A stretch of 64,000 bases of DNA from a virus (Duplodnaviria; Heunggongvirae; Uroviricota; Caudoviricetes), in IMG/VR virus record IMGVR_UViG_3300043467_001216, one strand, 5' to 3'. Shown here one piece after another: positions 10,627 through 36,664 of this stretch (within the stretch, counting starts at the first letter, position 1; each line of letters opens with the position of its first letter). A model generated the notes under the pieces. The model had not been told where the DNA came from. It saw nothing but the letters and a program-made list of their open reading frames with translations, and did no database searches. The position numbers and the translations under genes are program-made.

Positions 10627-10664
10627 AACCCCAATGATAAGTTGGGGTTTTTTTATTATATTTG
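10627..10664 (+). promoter_or_regulatory. Terminator-promoter cassette
   Basis: AACCCCAA...TTGGGGTT, T-run, TATATTTG at 10657-10664. Confidence 0.75.
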
Positions 10665-10904: not shown

Positions 10905-11170
10905 GTATGACCAAAGGAATGGTATTGAATTACGGACAAGCTATGAAACTTGGAGACATAGAAGATAAAATTGAATTATACGTAATGACTAACTATCCTG
11001 ATAAATCTTTCGGGTCACCGAATAATATATTGGGGAAATTCGGTAAAGAATTCTCCAAAACAACTTGGGGTAAATTATCGAAATTGGCTAAGACTGATGA
11101 GGTTTTACTATCATTAGTTAATGAGTTTAATGTAGAATTATTAAATGTGAAAATCACTAACGGATTATGA
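10901..11170 (+). CDS. Hypothetical protein
   Basis: ATGA overlaps on both sides. Confidence 0.7.
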   Translation: MSMTKGMVLNYGQAMKLGDIEDKIELYVMTNYPDKSFGSPNNILGKFGKEFSKTTWGKLSKLAKTDEVLLSLVNEFNVELLNVKITNGL

Positions 11171-12489
11171 ATTATACCGAAAAATATAAAGAGGGGTTTT
11201 ATAAACGTATTGAGAAAGAACTCAATCAATGTGAGATTATATATAACCCAAACACAAAAGGGATTTGGTTTGTTAACCGAGAAAGAAAATATTGGTTCCT
11301 TGAATATAAAATTGAAACCAATTACCTGTGGTGGAGATATGATTACTTCAAAAAGATTACAAGTTTGCTAGCAATGACTAGTGAGGTGTTTCAGGAATTA
11401 ATCTCTGAATGGGTGGAAAATAAACTAAATGCTAAGGTAGGTAGAACTGAATTACACAACTTAGATGAAAATACCGCGGTGCAAGACACCCTAAATTGTA
11501 AGGTAGACTCAACTTTTAGATATGGGAATGCCCCTCGTTTTGAGGTGGAAGAGACCCTAAATTGTAAGGTAGACTCAACAGTTTCCAGAGATTCATATTT
11601 ACCAATTCCGGTGGATGACACCCTAAATTGTAAGGTAGACTCAACTCAAGGAGTGGTTGGAACAATTAACCCCTGGGTGCAAGACACCCTAAATTGTAAG
11701 GTACTCTCAACGCAGTATCTTCTCGATTTGGAGCGTTCTGGGGTAGAAGACACCCTAAATTTTAATGTAGTAAAAACAGTAAGTATTAATAAATTTATTC
11801 CGAGGGATGTGGAAGATACCCTAAATTGTAAGGTAGACACAACGGGAATGGGTTACGGAGATTCTGCCCAGGGGGTGGAAGATACCCTAAATTGTAAGGT
11901 AGTCTCAACATGGGCGGGTAGAGAATTAACCGAAGATGAGGTGGAAGAGACCCTAAATTTTAATGTAGTAAAAACAGTAAGTATTAATAAATTTATTCCG
12001 AGGGATGTGGAAGATACCCTAAATTGTAAAGTAAACAGAGCCCAATGGTACAAAGATGGGAATGAATTACTTGTGGAAGAGACCCTAAATTGTAAGGTTG
12101 ATTCAATTTATTTTGATGAAAATGAAAATCGTGGTGTGGTAGAAGATACACTAAATTTTAAGGTAGATTCAACACTTGGGGTTTTTCAAAACGATGAAAT
12201 TTTGGTGGAAGAGGTCCTCAATTGTAAGGTTGATGAGGTAAATTGGTTTAACGGAAAACATAGAACACAGGTGGAAGAGACCCTAAATTGTAAGGTACTC
12301 TCAACATCATATATTCAATCATCGCTTCCTTTAAGGGTAGAAGATACCCTAAATTGTAAGGTAGATTCAACTTTTTGTGGAAGAAACACACGCTTCTTGA
12401 GGGTAGAAGATACCCTAAATTGTAAGGTAGACTCAACGTGGTCCCTATTAGATGACTGCGAAGATGAGGTGGAAGAAACATTAAATTAA
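11167..12489 (+). CDS. Protein with ~80-aa N-terminal domain fused to 16 units of 22 aa (VEDTLNCKVDST + 10 variable aa)
   Basis: 440 aa uninterrupted ORF; repeat variation is partly synonymous. Confidence 0.8.
   Translation: MNYTEKYKEGFYKRIEKELNQCEIIYNPNTKGIWFVNRERKYWFLEYKIETNYLWWRYDYFKKITSLLAMTSEVFQELISEWVENKLNAKVGRTELHNLDENTAVQDTLNCKVDSTFRYGNAPRFEVEETLNCKVDSTVSRDSYLPIPVDDTLNCKVDSTQGVVGTINPWVQDTLNCKVLSTQYLLDLERSGVEDTLNFNVVKTVSINKFIPRDVEDTLNCKVDTTGMGYGDSAQGVEDTLNCKVVSTWAGRELTEDEVEETLNFNVVKTVSINKFIPRDVEDTLNCKVNRAQWYKDGNELLVEETLNCKVDSIYFDENENRGVVEDTLNFKVDSTLGVFQNDEILVEEVLNCKVDEVNWFNGKHRTQVEETLNCKVLSTSYIQSSLPLRVEDTLNCKVDSTFCGRNTRFLRVEDTLNCKVDSTWSLLDDCEDEVEETLN
11412..12489. CRISPR. CRISPR-like array in frame within a CDS: 36-nt repeat, 16 spacers of exactly 30 nt
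   Basis: Consensus GGTGGAAGATACCCTAAATTGTAAGGTAGACTCAAC starting at 11412+66n (n=0-16); first copy degenerate, last truncated at the stop codon; spacers unrelated except two identical ones; no cas genes in window. Confidence 0.55.
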
Positions 12490-12546
12490 ACGAGGGTAAA
12501 TCTTACCCCTATAATATAAACGAGAGTAATAAATACATCTGAAATT

Positions 12547-20452: not shown

Positions 20453-21202
20453 ATGAAAATACTAATTACAGAAAACAAATTAATTGATAATTTCCAAAAA
20501 ATAATTGATAGAGAATTATCTAAATTAAGAGCTCGTTATCGTAGTGAGGAAATTTCAGCGTCAAATTGGTATCTTAGTATTTTTAGTAAAATAGATAGTG
20601 TAAAAGTTACTGACATCAAAAATAGTCCTACTTTTAGTGTTTATATTAATGTTTATGGGGATTCAAGATTGGATGAGGATGACATTCTAACATTCACCAA
20701 TTATTTACGAGAAAAATTATCAGTAATTGGAAACCCTTGGATTGTCCCAACTCTTGTTGGTGAAATTAATGAAATGGTTGATAAACCCAAAGATAATGTT
20801 GAGAAGATTAAATCCTTGATTGATAAAAAGGGGGTTAAGAAAGTAATTGGTTTAGTTGGTGGGCCTGAGAATTTTATTAAGATGTTGGGTTATGATGAAA
20901 TTGAAAAATATATATACCAATATTTGGATGAAAATTGTTATCCTGATTATGATTGGCAGAGTCCCAACGATTATAAAGAGGAGATTAAAAGATTTGGTGA
21001 AATTCTTTTTAATGTTAATGATTCTCCATCGTATGAATATAAACTACACTACGATGGTGGAACTCATTTAGATATTTACCAAAAAATGTTTAATCAAATG
21101 GAAGAAATTTTTTCAATTGATGGGGACAATTCAGTTTGGCTTAAAGTATTTGGTAAATGGTTTAAAAAAAATACAGGTCTTAGAGTTGATAGAGTAATAT
21201 GA
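20453..21202 (+). CDS. Leader-tagged two-module protein
   Basis: MKILITEN; internal EINE then GG-helix module; WFKKNTGLRV end. Confidence 0.85.
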   Translation: MKILITENKLIDNFQKIIDRELSKLRARYRSEEISASNWYLSIFSKIDSVKVTDIKNSPTFSVYINVYGDSRLDEDDILTFTNYLREKLSVIGNPWIVPTLVGEINEMVDKPKDNVEKIKSLIDKKGVKKVIGLVGGPENFIKMLGYDEIEKYIYQYLDENCYPDYDWQSPNDYKEEIKRFGEILFNVNDSPSYEYKLHYDGGTHLDIYQKMFNQMEEIFSIDGDNSVWLKVFGKWFKKNTGLRVDRVI

Positions 21203-21621
21203 AAATAGTAATTACAGAAAATAGATTAGAAAAAGTTCTTAAACAATCAGGTACTGATAAAACAATTCAGTTACTAGGTGGTTGGGAGAACTTTTGTAAA
21301 GTATTTAAGATTGAGAGTCCGATGGATTTCTTACATCTATTTGATGATTTAGAAGAATTTCAATCAACTGAAAACTCCAACTTTAAATTATATAGATATA
21401 GACCGGGAAAAAACTTTATGATATATAACATAAATGAGAATCGTATTGGTATTAGTAATGAAGAGATTTTGACTTTTGTTACCAGTAGTAATTTGTTTAC
21501 ACCTGACTTTAAACCGAGAGAAATAATACAAACGTGGTTGGAGGATGTTTATAAACTTGATATTGGTATAAATAGAATCCACTCATTTAATTTGTGGGAT
21601 AATGTTAGCCGAATAGAATAA
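21199..21621 (+). CDS. Family-A leader-tagged protein (1 of 5)
   Basis: MKIVITEN...LLGGWENF...PMDFLHLFDDL. Confidence 0.9.
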   Translation: MKIVITENRLEKVLKQSGTDKTIQLLGGWENFCKVFKIESPMDFLHLFDDLEEFQSTENSNFKLYRYRPGKNFMIYNINENRIGISNEEILTFVTSSNLFTPDFKPREIIQTWLEDVYKLDIGINRIHSFNLWDNVSRIE

Positions 21622-21622
21622 T

Positions 21623-22045
21623 ATGAAAATAGTTATAACAGAAAATAAATTAGAAAAAGTTCTTAAACAATCAGGGACTAAAAAAACTATTGAACTACTA
21701 GGTGGTTGGGATAATTTTTGCAAAGTATTTAAGATTGAAAGTCCAATGGACTTCTTACACCTTTTTGATGATTTGGAACGAGTTCAGTCGGAAGAAAAAA
21801 AAAATTGGACGTTATTTCGTTATAAAAAAGGTGATAATTATATAGTTTACGATAGAAAAAATGAGGAAGTCTACATTAATAATGTTGAGATTTTGATGAT
21901 TTTGTTAAAAACGATTCGACAATTTGATACTACCTATACTGTTACTCAGGAAGTATTAAAGAAGTGGTTGGGTGAGGTCTACAATTTAAAATATACACGA
22001 CCAACACCAAAACTCTTGTCGGGTAGTATGAAGTCTATAATTTAA
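21623..22045 (+). CDS. Family-A leader-tagged protein (2 of 5)
   Basis: Same N-terminal block; degenerate repeat pair at 21967/22023. Confidence 0.9.
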   Translation: MKIVITENKLEKVLKQSGTKKTIELLGGWDNFCKVFKIESPMDFLHLFDDLERVQSEEKKNWTLFRYKKGDNYIVYDRKNEEVYINNVEILMILLKTIRQFDTTYTVTQEVLKKWLGEVYNLKYTRPTPKLLSGSMKSII

Positions 22046-35387: not shown

Positions 35388-35810
35388 ATGAAAATATTAA
35401 TAACAGAAAATAAAGTAAAAAACGTCCTTAAACAAACCGGAGTTGGGAAAACTATTAAACTATTAGGTGGTTGGGAAAACTTTTGCGAAGTATTAAATAT
35501 TGAAACATTAATGGACTTCTTACATCTGTTTGATGATTTGGAACAAGTTAAATCTGAAAAAAAAGAAAATTGGACGTTATTTCGTTATAAAAAAGGTGAA
35601 AACTTAATGGTTTACGATAGAAAAAATGAGGTAGTTCATATCAATTATTATGAAATATGGTCATTTTTGGATGATAAATTTGGTCTTAGTTATTATGAGA
35701 CTCAAAGAATTACACAGGATTGGTTGGATGAGGTCTACAATTTAAGGGGGGTCACAACTGATTGGTCTTTTTTCTCCAATGTGTCGAGTTGGATGAGGTC
35801 TACAATTTAA
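35388..35810 (+). CDS. Family-A leader-tagged protein (3 of 5)
   Basis: Ends in repeat-spacer-half repeat. Confidence 0.9.
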   Translation: MKILITENKVKNVLKQTGVGKTIKLLGGWENFCEVLNIETLMDFLHLFDDLEQVKSEKKENWTLFRYKKGENLMVYDRKNEVVHINYYEIWSFLDDKFGLSYYETQRITQDWLDEVYNLRGVTTDWSFFSNVSSWMRSTI

Positions 35811-35812
35811 AA
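35723..35812. repeat. Mini CRISPR-like unit: 36-nt repeat, 29-nt spacer, half repeat
   Basis: GTTGGATGAGGTCTACAATTTAAGGGGGGTCACAAC at 35723-35758; GTTGGATGAGGTCTACAATTTAA again at 35788. Confidence 0.6.
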
Positions 35813-35819
35813 TAAGAGT

Positions 35820-36218
35820 ATGAAAATAATAATAACAGAAAATAAATTAGAGAAAGTTCTTAAACAATTAGGAAGTAAAAAAACTGTTCATATGTTAGGC
35901 GGTTGGGATAATTTTTGTGAACTATTTAATATTGAAAGTCCGATGGACTTCTTACATCTATTTGATGACTTAGAACAAGTTCAATCTGAAGAATATAAAA
36001 ATCAAACATTATTTCGTAACAAAAAAGGTTATAATTATATGGTTTACGATAGAAAAAAAAAGGTTGTTTACATCAATGGTGATGAAATATGGTCGTTTTT
36101 GGGAGGGTGGGGATTCCACCTTAACTTTAATGATATTCAATCACTTATAAAGGTGTGGTTGGATGAGGTTTACAATTTAAGGGGGGTTACAATTTTCAAC
36201 CTCTTCACAGTTAGGTGA
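35820..36218 (+). CDS. Family-A leader-tagged protein (4 of 5)
   Basis: Same N-terminal block; WLDEVYNLRGVT. Confidence 0.9.
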   Translation: MKIIITENKLEKVLKQLGSKKTVHMLGGWDNFCELFNIESPMDFLHLFDDLEQVQSEEYKNQTLFRNKKGYNYMVYDRKKKVVYINGDEIWSFLGGWGFHLNFNDIQSLIKVWLDEVYNLRGVTIFNLFTVR

Positions 36219-36235
36219 GGTCAACAATTTAAAAT
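36158..36235. repeat. Mini repeat unit: 36-nt repeat, 16-nt spacer, half repeat
   Basis: GTTGGATGAGGTTTACAATTTAAGGGGGGTTACAAT at 36158; GTTAGGTGAGGTCAACAATTTAAAAT at 36210. Confidence 0.55.
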
Positions 36236-36241
36236 GAAATT

Positions 36242-36664
36242 ATGAAAGTATTAATAACAGAAAATAAATTAGAGAAAGTTCTTAAAAAAAATGGAACTGT
36301 TAAAGTATTTAAACTACTTGGTAATAGTGGTGAGAACTTTCGTAAAGTTTTCAATATAGAAACCCCAATGGATTTCTTACATCTATTTGATGATTTGGAT
36401 GTGGTTCAATCAGAAAAAGATGAGAATTTAACCTTATTTAGATATCAAGAAGGTGATAATTATATGGTATTAGATGAAAGTTTAGAATACAAAAGGATAT
36501 TTGTAAGTTATGCTAATTTAGTTTGGTTTTTAGAAGATACTTTTGAACTTAACTACCCAGGTCAGTGTGGTCAGGCTATTACTCAATGGTTGGAAGAATC
36601 CTATAATATAACTAATGTTACACCTATACTTTACACAACAAGACAAAATTCAAATATTCTATAA
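36242..36664 (+). CDS. Family-A leader-tagged protein (5 of 5)
   Basis: MKVLITEN...PMDFLHLFDDL...WLEESYNI. Confidence 0.9.
   Translation: MKVLITENKLEKVLKKNGTVKVFKLLGNSGENFRKVFNIETPMDFLHLFDDLDVVQSEKDENLTLFRYQEGDNYMVLDESLEYKRIFVSYANLVWFLEDTFELNYPGQCGQAITQWLEESYNITNVTPILYTTRQNSNIL

What the first reader, a model, noticed from the sequence alone, without database searches (positions are those of the whole stretch)
11412..12489. A CRISPR-like 36+30 array that is also an open reading frame: candidate spacer-driven protein diversification or dual RNA/protein system
Seen: exact 66-nt period, 17 repeats (consensus GGTGGAAGATACCCTAAATTGTAAGGTAGACTCAAC with an internal TACC/GGTA stem) and 16 spacers of exactly 30 nt. 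The spacers are mutually unrelated apart from one duplicate, and several are more GC-rich than the genome. The sharp boundary between near-identical repeats and unrelated spacers is not what ordinary tandem duplication gives. Yet the + frame has no stop in about 135 unique spacer codons (chance of order 1e-3 for random sequence), the antisense frame is interrupted, and many repeat variants are synonymous (GTG/GTA, GAT/GAC), so the 22-aa units look selected as protein. Known: 36-nt repeats with ~30-nt spacers are typical of Bacteroidota type II-C and VI-B arrays, and 66 is divisible by 3. Inference: Cas1-Cas2-like integration (host or phage) into a coding repeat adds 10-aa variable peptides in frame, or the mRNA doubles as a pre-crRNA or decoy. 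No cas or RT gene is in this window.
Basis: partly seen in the sequence, partly recalled or inferred. Interest (0 to 1): 0.92.

Follow-up and report, generated by a model that had tools for sequence, protein, structure and literature searches.

The report
Translated CRISPR-type array in phage gene
A gene of an uncultured giant lake phage ends in a 16-unit array with the repeat sequence, 36+30-base geometry and one-ended turnover of a bacterial Cas13b (type VI-B) CRISPR array, yet it is read in frame as protein. This suggests that CRISPR-style insertion of DNA units can diversify a protein.

Summary
Window 11412-12489 holds 17 copies of a 36-nt repeat (the first degenerate, the last cut by the stop codon) and 16 spacers of exactly 30 nt. 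All lie inside ORF 11167-12489 (440 aa) of an IMG/VR jumbo-phage contig from lake water.

It is not an ordinary repeat protein:
- The conserved block is a 36-nt nucleotide unit shifted one base from the codon frame. The wobble base before it is G in 92% of 298 units, wobble sites inside it are frozen on rare codons, and the wobble base after it is free.
- In an ungapped register it matches 17 of the 21 columns invariant in eight Bacteroidota type VI-B arrays. A matrix built from those arrays ranks its copies first among 252,306 positions of the contig, on the sense strand.

It is also a real protein:
- No spacer carries an in-frame stop.
- Spacer variants show pN/pS 0.26, against 0.23 for the N-domain.
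- The first repeat is part of a confidently folded N-terminal domain.

Close relatives carry collinear subsets of cassettes. Unique cassettes crowd the end next to the N-domain, as at a CRISPR leader.

Not shown: protospacers (none found), an integrase, or RNA processing. This scan has noted the same kind of locus before on other DNA. I found no paper describing it.

The parts
11167..12489 (+). ORF of 440 aa: N-terminal domain followed by the array, read in one frame
   Evidence: Family of 158 clusters at 50% identity. 55 viral and 42 metagenome loci.
11167..11411 (+). N-terminal alpha/beta domain (about residues 1-82, continuing into the first repeat); sits where a CRISPR leader would
   Evidence: AF2 pLDDT 87.5, pTM 0.78. 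Helix 72-87 and strand 93-97 include the first repeat and the start of the first spacer. No PDB fold match, no Pfam or PHROG family. Synonymous codons here vary freely across the family.
11412..11477 (+). Unit 0: degenerate first repeat (36 nt) plus a conserved first spacer (peptide ELHNLDENTA); structural part of the N-domain
   Evidence: Identical in relative L009.
11478..12467 (+). Fifteen full units: 36-nt repeat resembling the type VI-B direct repeat (peptide VE[DE]TLNCKVDST) plus a 30-nt spacer (10 variable residues)
   Evidence: PWM built from eight VI-B arrays gives 24.6, 22.8 and 20.0 bits here, against 10.1 for the best unrelated site in the contig. 17 of 21 invariant DR columns matched.
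11743..11808 (+). Unit 5, duplicated as unit 8 (11941-12006), with variant repeat FNVVKT and spacer VSINKFIPRD
12073..12138 (+). Unit 10 (spacer YFDENENRGV), shared with relative L009 with 1 mismatch; an old, distal cassette
12403..12467 (+). Unit 15 (spacer WSLLDDCEDE), the conserved trailer-end cassette in L009, L011, P0002 and P0009
   Evidence: The L011 copy differs mostly at synonymous or conservative sites.
12468..12489 (+). Terminal truncated repeat (VEETLN plus stop), analogous to the degenerate last repeat of a CRISPR array
   Evidence: All relatives end the same way.
12494..12508 (+). Perfect 6-bp hairpin just after the stop codon; on the minus strand it is scored terminator-like
35723..35809 (+). 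Paralogous mini-unit at the 3' end of ORF 35388-35810: a 36-nt DR-like repeat, a 29-nt spacer, then a 22-nt repeat copy read out of frame
   Evidence: VI-B PWM 8.0 bits, family PWM 14.1 bits.

Best explanation
The locus is a translated CRISPR-type array.

- Repeat. The 36-nt unit derives from, or mimics, the type VI-B (Cas13b) direct repeat of Bacteroidota. It is kept by selection on the nucleotide sequence itself. Its sense strand, which is the mRNA, is in crRNA orientation.
- Turnover. Whole units of repeat plus 30 nt are gained mainly at the end next to the N-terminal domain, which sits where a CRISPR leader would. Units are lost by repeat-repeat recombination.
- Translation. Because 36+30 = 66 = 22 codons, every unit adds 12 conserved and 10 new residues in frame. 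Only stop-free units survive, and the cassettes are then kept by purifying selection as protein.
- Product. The result is a phage protein made of a folded N-domain and a string of conserved beta-strand segments alternating with swappable 10-residue cassettes.

Shown here: the nucleotide-level unit, the VI-B likeness, the open frame and protein-level selection, and the one-ended diversity among relatives.

Inferred: the inserting enzyme is the host's Cas1-Cas2 acting in trans, as it does on cas1-less VI-B arrays of Flavobacterium columnare (PMC8092290). The transcript may also be bound or cut by host Cas13b. What the protein does is unknown.
For: 1. Nucleotide unit.
- In 298 unit contexts from 43 loci, the base before the first Val codon, which is the wobble base of a hypervariable codon, is G in 92%.
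- Wobble sites inside the unit are frozen (GTG 86%, GAA 90%, AAT 92%, AAG 91%, GTA 80%, ACA 94%), while the wobble of codon 12 is free.
- GTG, AAG, ACC and CTA are rare codons in this phage, at 7-13% of their synonymous sets.
- In the same genes, synonymous codons upstream of the first repeat vary freely.
- Synonymous divergence for L010 pairs is 0.06-0.12 in the repeats against 0.39-0.44 in the N-domain.

2. Likeness to type VI-B repeats.
- Real arrays beside or in genomes with Cas13b were fetched.
- A PWM built from them puts the array's copies at the top of all 252,306 positions of the contig. Scores are 24.6, 22.8 and 20.0 bits against a background of -41.7 +/- 10.6, with 10.1 for the best unrelated site and 3.9 for the antisense strand.
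- In an ungapped alignment 17 of 21 invariant DR columns match, p about 2e-6.
- The real arrays also have 36-nt repeats with spacers mostly of 30 nt (PMC13187072).
- The actual codons score higher than synonymous resamples in 44 of 45 repeats.

3. Protein.
- The ORF frame has 0 stops against 12-44 in the other frames.
- pN/pS of spacer variants is 0.26, against 0.23 for the N-domain.
- The first repeat is part of the fold.

4. Turnover.
- In 25 distinct arrays of one orthologous gene, singleton cassettes occupy 12/25 first positions, 7/25 second, 16/80 middle and 1/24 last (Mann-Whitney p 6e-4).
- The arrays are mostly collinear subsets of one order, with one inverted cassette pair.
- Distal repeats are more degenerate than proximal ones.
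- In the window's own clade the shared cassettes are all distal.

5. Spacers are compositionally foreign. GC is 0.385-0.45 against 0.31-0.32 for the phages, and codon usage fits worse than native genes.

6. A Bacteroidota-type host is likely. Only 1% of starts have a Shine-Dalgarno motif and the region upstream is A-rich.
Against: - No protospacer was found for any spacer. Places searched:
  - the phage's own contig and related loci;
  - a 240-kb relative;
  - GenBank phages;
  - IMG/VR, four spacers;
  - JGI metagenome contigs, one spacer;
  - 401 + 170 Bacteroidota genomes by BLAST, which gave only chance AT-rich hits.
- No cas1, cas2 or cas13b is present in five phage contigs, though these are 42-82% complete.
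- The repeat differs from all real VI-B repeats at invariant positions 2, 5 and 18. Only 65% of the DR's base pairs can form, against 95% in real repeats.
- A covariance model of the DR gives only 15.3 bits, E 0.4.
- The array is identical in lake metagenomes of 2020 and 2024, so no ongoing gain was seen.
- One-ended diversity can also arise by recombination between alleles, and the arrays compared are not phylogenetically independent.
- Some shared cassettes are not collinear, for example the order of cassettes 13 and 16 in L140 versus L075.
Confidence: 0.6

Rival explanations
1. RNA decoy (Racr-like). The phage mRNA carries 16 Cas13b-repeat mimics and acts mainly as a false pre-crRNA. It titrates host Cas13b or loads it with harmless guides. 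Translation of the array is secondary. This can coexist with the best explanation.
For: - The sense strand is in crRNA orientation and has the guide-repeat layout.
- The repeat is under nucleotide-level selection.
- Repeat mimicry by phages is an established anti-CRISPR strategy, and surplus crRNA lowers Cas13b defence (PMC10651486, PMC13187072).
- The published SRU search masked ORFs and found no type VI candidates, so such mimics would have been missed.
- Contigs from two metatranscriptome libraries lie inside the array.
Against: - A decoy needs no open frame, yet no spacer has an in-frame stop and spacer variants show pN/pS 0.26.
- Invariant DR positions 2, 5 and 18 differ and the hairpin is weak.
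- It does not explain one-ended cassette diversity.
- The RNA contigs show neither strand nor processing and could derive from DNA.
Confidence: 0.25
2. Fossil array. A CRISPR array was captured once at the 3' end of an ancestral phage gene and exapted as protein. Nothing is inserted today. Present diversity comes from deletions and recombination between repeats of diverged alleles and paralogues.
For: - Arrays are collinear subsets of one order, explicable by deletions alone.
- Several paralogous arrays occur per genome as possible donors.
- No protospacers were found and no change was seen between 2020 and 2024.
- Cassettes are under purifying selection.
Against: - Among the 25 distinct arrays, 36 cassette types occur in a single array each, and these concentrate at the first positions. 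A deletion-only history would need very large ancestral arrays.
- Repeat wobble sites stay frozen across phages whose N-domains are only about 35% identical. That implies the nucleotide sequence is still in use.
- Spacer composition stays foreign instead of having drifted toward the phage's.
Confidence: 0.2
3. Ordinary 22-residue tandem-repeat protein. Its repeats are homogenised by gene conversion, its loops are hypervariable, and the likeness to Cas13b repeats is coincidence.
For: - The family is large, with a 22-aa period, and some members have protein-level degenerate repeats such as P0005.
- The first repeat is part of a folded domain.
- AF2 suggests stacked strands, at low confidence.
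- Cassettes diverge gradually between relatives.
Against: - Protein selection cannot fix the wobble base of the preceding variable codon (G 92%). It cannot fix rare synonymous codons across distant phages while leaving the codon-12 wobble free.
- The block boundaries coincide with DR positions 1 and 36, and 17 of 21 invariant DR columns match, p about 2e-6.
- The array's copies rank first in the contig by the DR matrix.
- In paralogues a second repeat copy lies out of frame or after the stop codon.
Confidence: 0.05

Closest known systems
Type VI-B (Cas13b) CRISPR arrays of Bacteroidota, filled in trans by type II-C Cas1-Cas2 (PMC8092290; PMC13187072)
   Same: - 36-nt repeat and 30-nt spacers.
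- 17 of 21 invariant repeat columns, including the ACAAC end.
- Repeat orientation relative to transcription.
- Variable end on the upstream (leader) side, and a degenerate terminal repeat.
- Loss of internal units.
- Arrays that carry no cas1/cas2 of their own.
   Different: - Lies inside a phage ORF and is translated, with spacers under purifying selection as peptides.
- Its 'leader' is a protein-coding domain whose last helix and strand are encoded by the first repeat.
- Repeat positions 2, 5 and 18 differ and the hairpin is weak.
- No cas13b lies nearby, and no protospacers were found.
Virus-borne orphan CRISPR arrays, mini-arrays and solitary repeat units / RNA anti-CRISPRs (PMC10651486; PMC7162821)
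   Same: - A phage carries mimics of a host CRISPR repeat without cas genes.
- It may act on the host effector.
   Different: - The known cases are non-coding RNAs downstream of promoters.
- SRUFinder masks ORFs and found no type VI examples.
- This locus has 16 units in frame within a gene.
Multi-core RiPP precursors such as cyanobactin PatE (from my own knowledge, not tested here)
   Same: Nearly identical DNA flanks alternate with hypervariable peptide cassettes of fixed length.
   Different: - No modifying or protease genes were identified nearby.
- The conserved block is out of register with codons and resembles a CRISPR repeat.
Diversity-generating retroelements (from my own knowledge)
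   Same: A phage-encoded way of varying a protein segment.
   Different: - DGRs mutate adenines of a fixed variable region from a template repeat through a reverse transcriptase.
- Here whole unrelated 30-nt units differ, and no template repeat is present.

Membership tests
Type VI-B CRISPR array | 36-nt direct repeat with the conserved VI-B sequence (GTTGTA ... ACAAC) | tested here: inconclusive
   For: 17 of 21 invariant columns match, and the array's copies are the top PWM hits in the contig at 24.6 bits. Against: positions 2, 5 and 18 always differ, and the covariance model gives only 15.3 bits, E 0.4. It is a relative or mimic, not a canonical repeat.
Type VI-B CRISPR array | Unique spacers of about 30 nt between the repeats | tested here: met
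   16 spacers of exactly 30 nt, unrelated except for one duplicate. Real arrays have spacers of 30 nt, occasionally 29 or 31.
Type VI-B CRISPR array | Association with cas13b (and csx27/28) | tested here: not met
   NF038190 was not found in the window's contig or four related phage contigs, which are 26-65% complete. Only a host enzyme acting in trans could supply it.
Type VI-B CRISPR array | Spacers copied from foreign DNA (protospacers) | tested here: inconclusive
   None found. The bacterial sample was sparse (571 species, two candidates scored per genome), and only five spacers were scanned against the large collections.
Type VI-B CRISPR array | Polarised gain at the leader end and a conserved trailer end | tested here: met
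   In the L127 group, singleton cassettes occupy 12/25 first positions against 1/24 last, p 6e-4. In the window's own clade the shared cassettes are distal. This is population inference, not an observed event.
Type VI-B CRISPR array | Transcription and processing into 66-nt crRNAs | not testable with these tools
   Two metatranscriptome contigs overlap the array, but they give no strand or end information.
Type VI-B CRISPR array | Non-coding locus | tested here: not met
   The frame is open through all units and under purifying selection.
RNA anti-CRISPR (Racr) / solitary repeat unit | [quoted passage not shown] | tested here: inconclusive
   The mimicry is met. However, the element lies in an ORF, has many units, and shows no promoter signal above chance.
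Ordinary tandem-repeat protein | Conservation explained by the amino-acid sequence, with synonymous sites free to vary | tested here: not met
   Wobble sites are frozen, and the base before the repeat is G in 92%.

The most novel reading that the evidence does not exclude
During infection the host's CRISPR adaptation machinery (II-C-type Cas1-Cas2 working in trans) mistakes the repeat-like 3' end of phage genes for a VI-B array. It writes captured 30-bp DNA into them, each insertion becoming an in-frame 10-residue cassette. This would be a natural, spacer-driven system for diversifying proteins, whose transcript may also feed or jam Cas13b.
Probability: 0.35. Interest if true: 0.97.

Novelty: categorically new. 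Interest (0 to 1): 0.88.

Why it matters
CRISPR arrays are known only as non-coding memory banks. Here an array-like structure with a Cas13b-type repeat is kept both as a nucleotide element and as an open, selected reading frame. It belongs to a large family of jumbo-phage genes: 158 clusters at 50% identity, many with several copies per genome.

If units are indeed inserted by adaptation enzymes, this would be a new way of generating protein diversity, by cassette insertion rather than mutation. It would also be a new kind of phage-host interplay with type VI systems, for which no repeat mimics had been reported. And it would offer a natural template for recording DNA into proteins.

Even the minimal reading matters for annotation. 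CRISPR finders discard arrays in ORFs, and SRU searches mask ORFs, so this class is systematically missed.

Tried and rejected
- **Pfam, PHROGs and NCBIfam naming of the protein:** nothing real.
- **ESM Atlas and PDB fold search of the N-domain:** no match.
- **Rfam:** no CRISPR-DR or other family.
- **Cultured phages (INPHARED):** no family member and no match to the array.
- **Exact repeat core in one genome per GTDB species:** only three single chance hits and no bacterial array.
- **Literature search for published DR strings:** my remembered sequences were not found, so I fetched real arrays instead.
- **First orientation guess:** antisense, from memory and one G-U pair. The PWM overturned it: 24.6 bits sense against 3.9 antisense.
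- **Recurrent BLAST hits of spacer 10 in about 40 Bacteroidia genomes:** these looked like a conserved source gene. They proved to be unrelated genes sharing an AT-rich YFDEN motif, at 16-23 of 30 identities.
- **Spacers of eight real VI-B/II-C arrays against the phage contigs:** chance matches only, so no host link.
- **RNA covariation in the repeat:** the pairs hardly vary and cannot be separated from codon constraints.
- **AF2 of five repeat units:** low confidence, pLDDT 58.
- **Lake metagenome and metatranscriptome contigs:** no variant joints, and no strand or end information.
- **Unpublished genomes:** G733 and G661 appeared only as chance-level hits.
- **DGR and RiPP-precursor readings:** considered and set aside. 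No template repeat or adenine pattern is present, and no tailoring genes were recognised among the five neighbouring ORFs scanned.

Full report
**What is there.** The window is the minus strand of an IMG/VR virus contig of 126 kb (CheckV 42% complete, so probably a jumbo phage). It recurs in many lake-water metagenomes. Positions 11412-12489 have an exact 66-nt period. They hold a degenerate first repeat, 15 good 36-nt repeats, a last copy truncated by the stop codon, and 16 spacers of exactly 30 nt. Everything lies in ORF 11167-12489, 440 aa. In protein terms each unit is 12 conserved residues (VE[DE]TLNCKVDST) plus 10 variable ones. The spacers are mutually unrelated except for one duplicated unit. 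Across 41 distinct spacers of five related phages the ORF frame has no stop, while the other five frames have 12-44.

**A large family.** The first 110 residues find 158 clusters among 1.84 billion representative proteins. Most of these have the same roughly 80-residue N-domain followed by 1-16 units with a 22-residue period. I fetched DNA for 55 viral and 42 metagenome loci. Many sit on contigs of 100-300 kb, and some contigs carry several such genes in tandem. AlphaFold models the N-domain with confidence (pLDDT 87.5). The first repeat encodes the end of its last helix, and the repeat/first-spacer junction forms a strand of the sheet. The fold has no PDB match and no Pfam or PHROG family. 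Five repeat units fold only at low confidence, as stacked strands.

**The conserved block is a nucleotide element, not a peptide.**
- Over 298 unit contexts from 43 loci, the base before the first Val codon is G in 92%. This base is the wobble position of a hypervariable codon, where G is otherwise 10-17%.
- Wobble positions inside the block are frozen (GTG 86%, GAA 90%, AAT 92%, AAG 91%, GTA 80%, ACA 94%). The wobble of codon 12 is unconstrained.
- The conserved block is therefore exactly 36 nt, shifted one base from the codon frame, and the variable part is exactly 30 nt.
- GTG and AAG, and in this clade ACC and CTA, are rare codons of the phage, at 7-13% of their synonymous sets.
- In the same genes and lineages, synonymous codons just upstream of the first repeat vary freely.
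- For the most distant pair, synonymous divergence is 0.06-0.12 in repeats against 0.39-0.44 in the N-domain.
- Paralogous 140-aa genes of this window carry a second repeat copy out of frame or after the stop codon.

**The block resembles type VI-B repeats.**
- I fetched real arrays from Bacteroidota genomes. One lies beside Cas13b (746 bits) and Csx27. Seven more are in genomes with Cas13b, mostly adjacent to it and on the same strand.
- These arrays have 36-nt repeats with spacers mostly of 30 nt, as published (PMC13187072).
- I scanned a weight matrix from the eight arrays over both strands of the whole contig (252,306 positions, mean -41.7, sd 10.6 bits). The array's repeats rank first at 24.6, 22.8 and 20.0 bits, on the sense strand.
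- The best unrelated site scores 10.1 and the array's antisense strand 3.9.
- In the ungapped 36-nt register, both the window's consensus and the family consensus match 17 of the 21 columns invariant in the eight arrays (p about 2e-6). The block's ends fall on DR positions 1 and 36.
- The actual codons score higher than synonymous resamples in 44 of 45 repeats.
- The likeness is imperfect. DR positions 2, 5 and 18 always differ, only 65% of DR pairs can form (95% in real repeats), and a covariance model gives just 15.3 bits.

**It is also a protein under selection.** Besides the open frame, homologous spacer variants in 36 loci of one orthologous gene show pN/pS 0.26, like the N-domain's 0.23. 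The trailer cassette WSLLDDCEDE differs between clades mostly by synonymous or conservative changes. Yet the spacers are compositionally foreign. Their GC is 0.385-0.45 against 0.31-0.32 for the phages, and their codon usage fits worse than native gene pieces.

**Turnover looks like a CRISPR array.**
- For one orthologous gene (N-domains 90-100% identical) I recovered 25 distinct arrays. They are mostly collinear subsets of one cassette order, apart from one inverted cassette pair (L140 versus L075).
- Cassettes seen in a single array occupy 12/25 first positions, 7/25 second, 16/80 middle and 1/24 last (Mann-Whitney p 6e-4).
- Repeats nearest the N-domain are nearly identical to the first repeat, and distal ones are more degenerate.
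- In the window's own clade, units 10, 11 and 15 are shared with relatives in the same order. Units 1-9 are unique.
- The variable end, the repeat orientation and the direction of transcription all agree with VI-B arrays, which are transcribed from the leader end (PMC8092290).
- These arrays are related to each other, so the statistic is indicative, not proof. Recombination between alleles could give a similar picture.

**What could not be shown.**
- No spacer has a source sequence in any collection searched: the contig itself and related loci, a 240-kb relative, GenBank phages, IMG/VR for four spacers, JGI metagenome contigs for one, or 571 Bacteroidota genomes by BLAST. In that last search the apparent recurrent hits proved to be an AT-rich motif in unrelated genes.
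- No cas13b, cas1 or cas2 lies in five phage contigs of 42-82% completeness.
- The array is unchanged between lake samples of 2020 and 2024.
- Two metatranscriptome contigs overlap it, but they give no strand or end information.
- The host is probably a Bacteroidota. Only 1% of starts have a Shine-Dalgarno motif and the region upstream is A-rich. No direct link was found.

**Interpretation.** The best reading (0.6) is a translated CRISPR-type array. A VI-B-like repeat is kept as a nucleotide element. Whole 66-nt units are gained mainly next to the N-domain and lost by recombination. Each unit is read as 12+10 residues and then selected as protein. Two further points are inference: that host Cas1-Cas2 does the inserting, as it does in trans for cas1-less VI-B arrays (PMC8092290), and that the transcript meets Cas13b.

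The rivals are:
- a mainly RNA-level decoy (0.25, compatible with the best reading);
- a fossil array now shuffled only by recombination (0.2);
- an ordinary repeat protein (0.05), which fails the wobble-site tests.

**Known or new.** Phage-borne orphan arrays and repeat mimics are known. However, the published SRU search masked ORFs and found none for type VI (PMC10651486). Seven full-text searches found no description of translated arrays. Earlier notes of this scan describe the same kind of locus in other phage genomes. Some of them claim exact host-chromosome protospacers, which I could not reproduce for this array. Two place the Cas13b likeness on the reverse strand, which my strand-resolved matrix contradicts for this family.

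Noticed in passing
window 21199-22045 and 35388-36664: Five paralogous 140-aa genes starting MKI.ITENKLEKVLKQ end in W-L-D-E-V-Y-N-L-R-G-V-T-T, encoded by a DR-like 36-mer with GTTG...CAAC ends. About 29 or 21 nt further on lies a partial repeat copy. In ORF 35388 that copy is out of frame, and in ORF 35820 it starts at the stop codon.
   Followed up: partly
L107:4071-4783 (IMGVR_UViG_3300042197_002234): Two tandem paralogues ending WVEHTLQMEVRYN carry 36+29+36-nt units. Their antisense strand scores 22.5 bits on the VI-B matrix, and the sense strand at most 9.4. Repeat orientation relative to the gene is therefore not the same in all paralogue families.
   Followed up: partly
P0010 (metagenome protein, 180 aa): An N-domain (63% identical over residues 1-81) runs in frame into a serine-recombinase (Resolvase, PF00239) fragment, roughly where the first repeat would start. 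This could be an IS607-like insertion at the repeat or an assembly chimera.
   Followed up: partly
L114:600-3900 and L098, L089, L120, L017: Several family genes with their own arrays lie in tandem within a few kb of one phage contig. They are possible donors for cassette exchange.
   Followed up: no
window 10627-10649 and 12494-12508: A strong terminator-like hairpin followed by a T-run lies about 0.5 kb upstream of the gene. A perfect 6-bp hairpin lies 5 nt after its stop codon.
   Followed up: no
whole contig G000: Only 2 of 144 long ORFs have a Shine-Dalgarno-like motif, and positions -14 to -9 are A-rich. This is the translation-initiation signature of Bacteroidota.
   Followed up: yes
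P0015 (233 aa) and P0012 (163 aa): P0015 has two N-domains in tandem behind an MKYIITENQ leader, each ending in a single repeat-like motif. P0012 has the first 51 residues of the window's protein fused to a Lys/Arg/Ala-rich tail, possibly through a frameshift.
   Followed up: no
L044:9507-11390 (genome G324): In a real VI-B array beside Cas13b-Csx27, the repeat at the far end from the cas genes is degenerate. This fixes the trailer end at the 3' side in crRNA orientation.
   Followed up: yes
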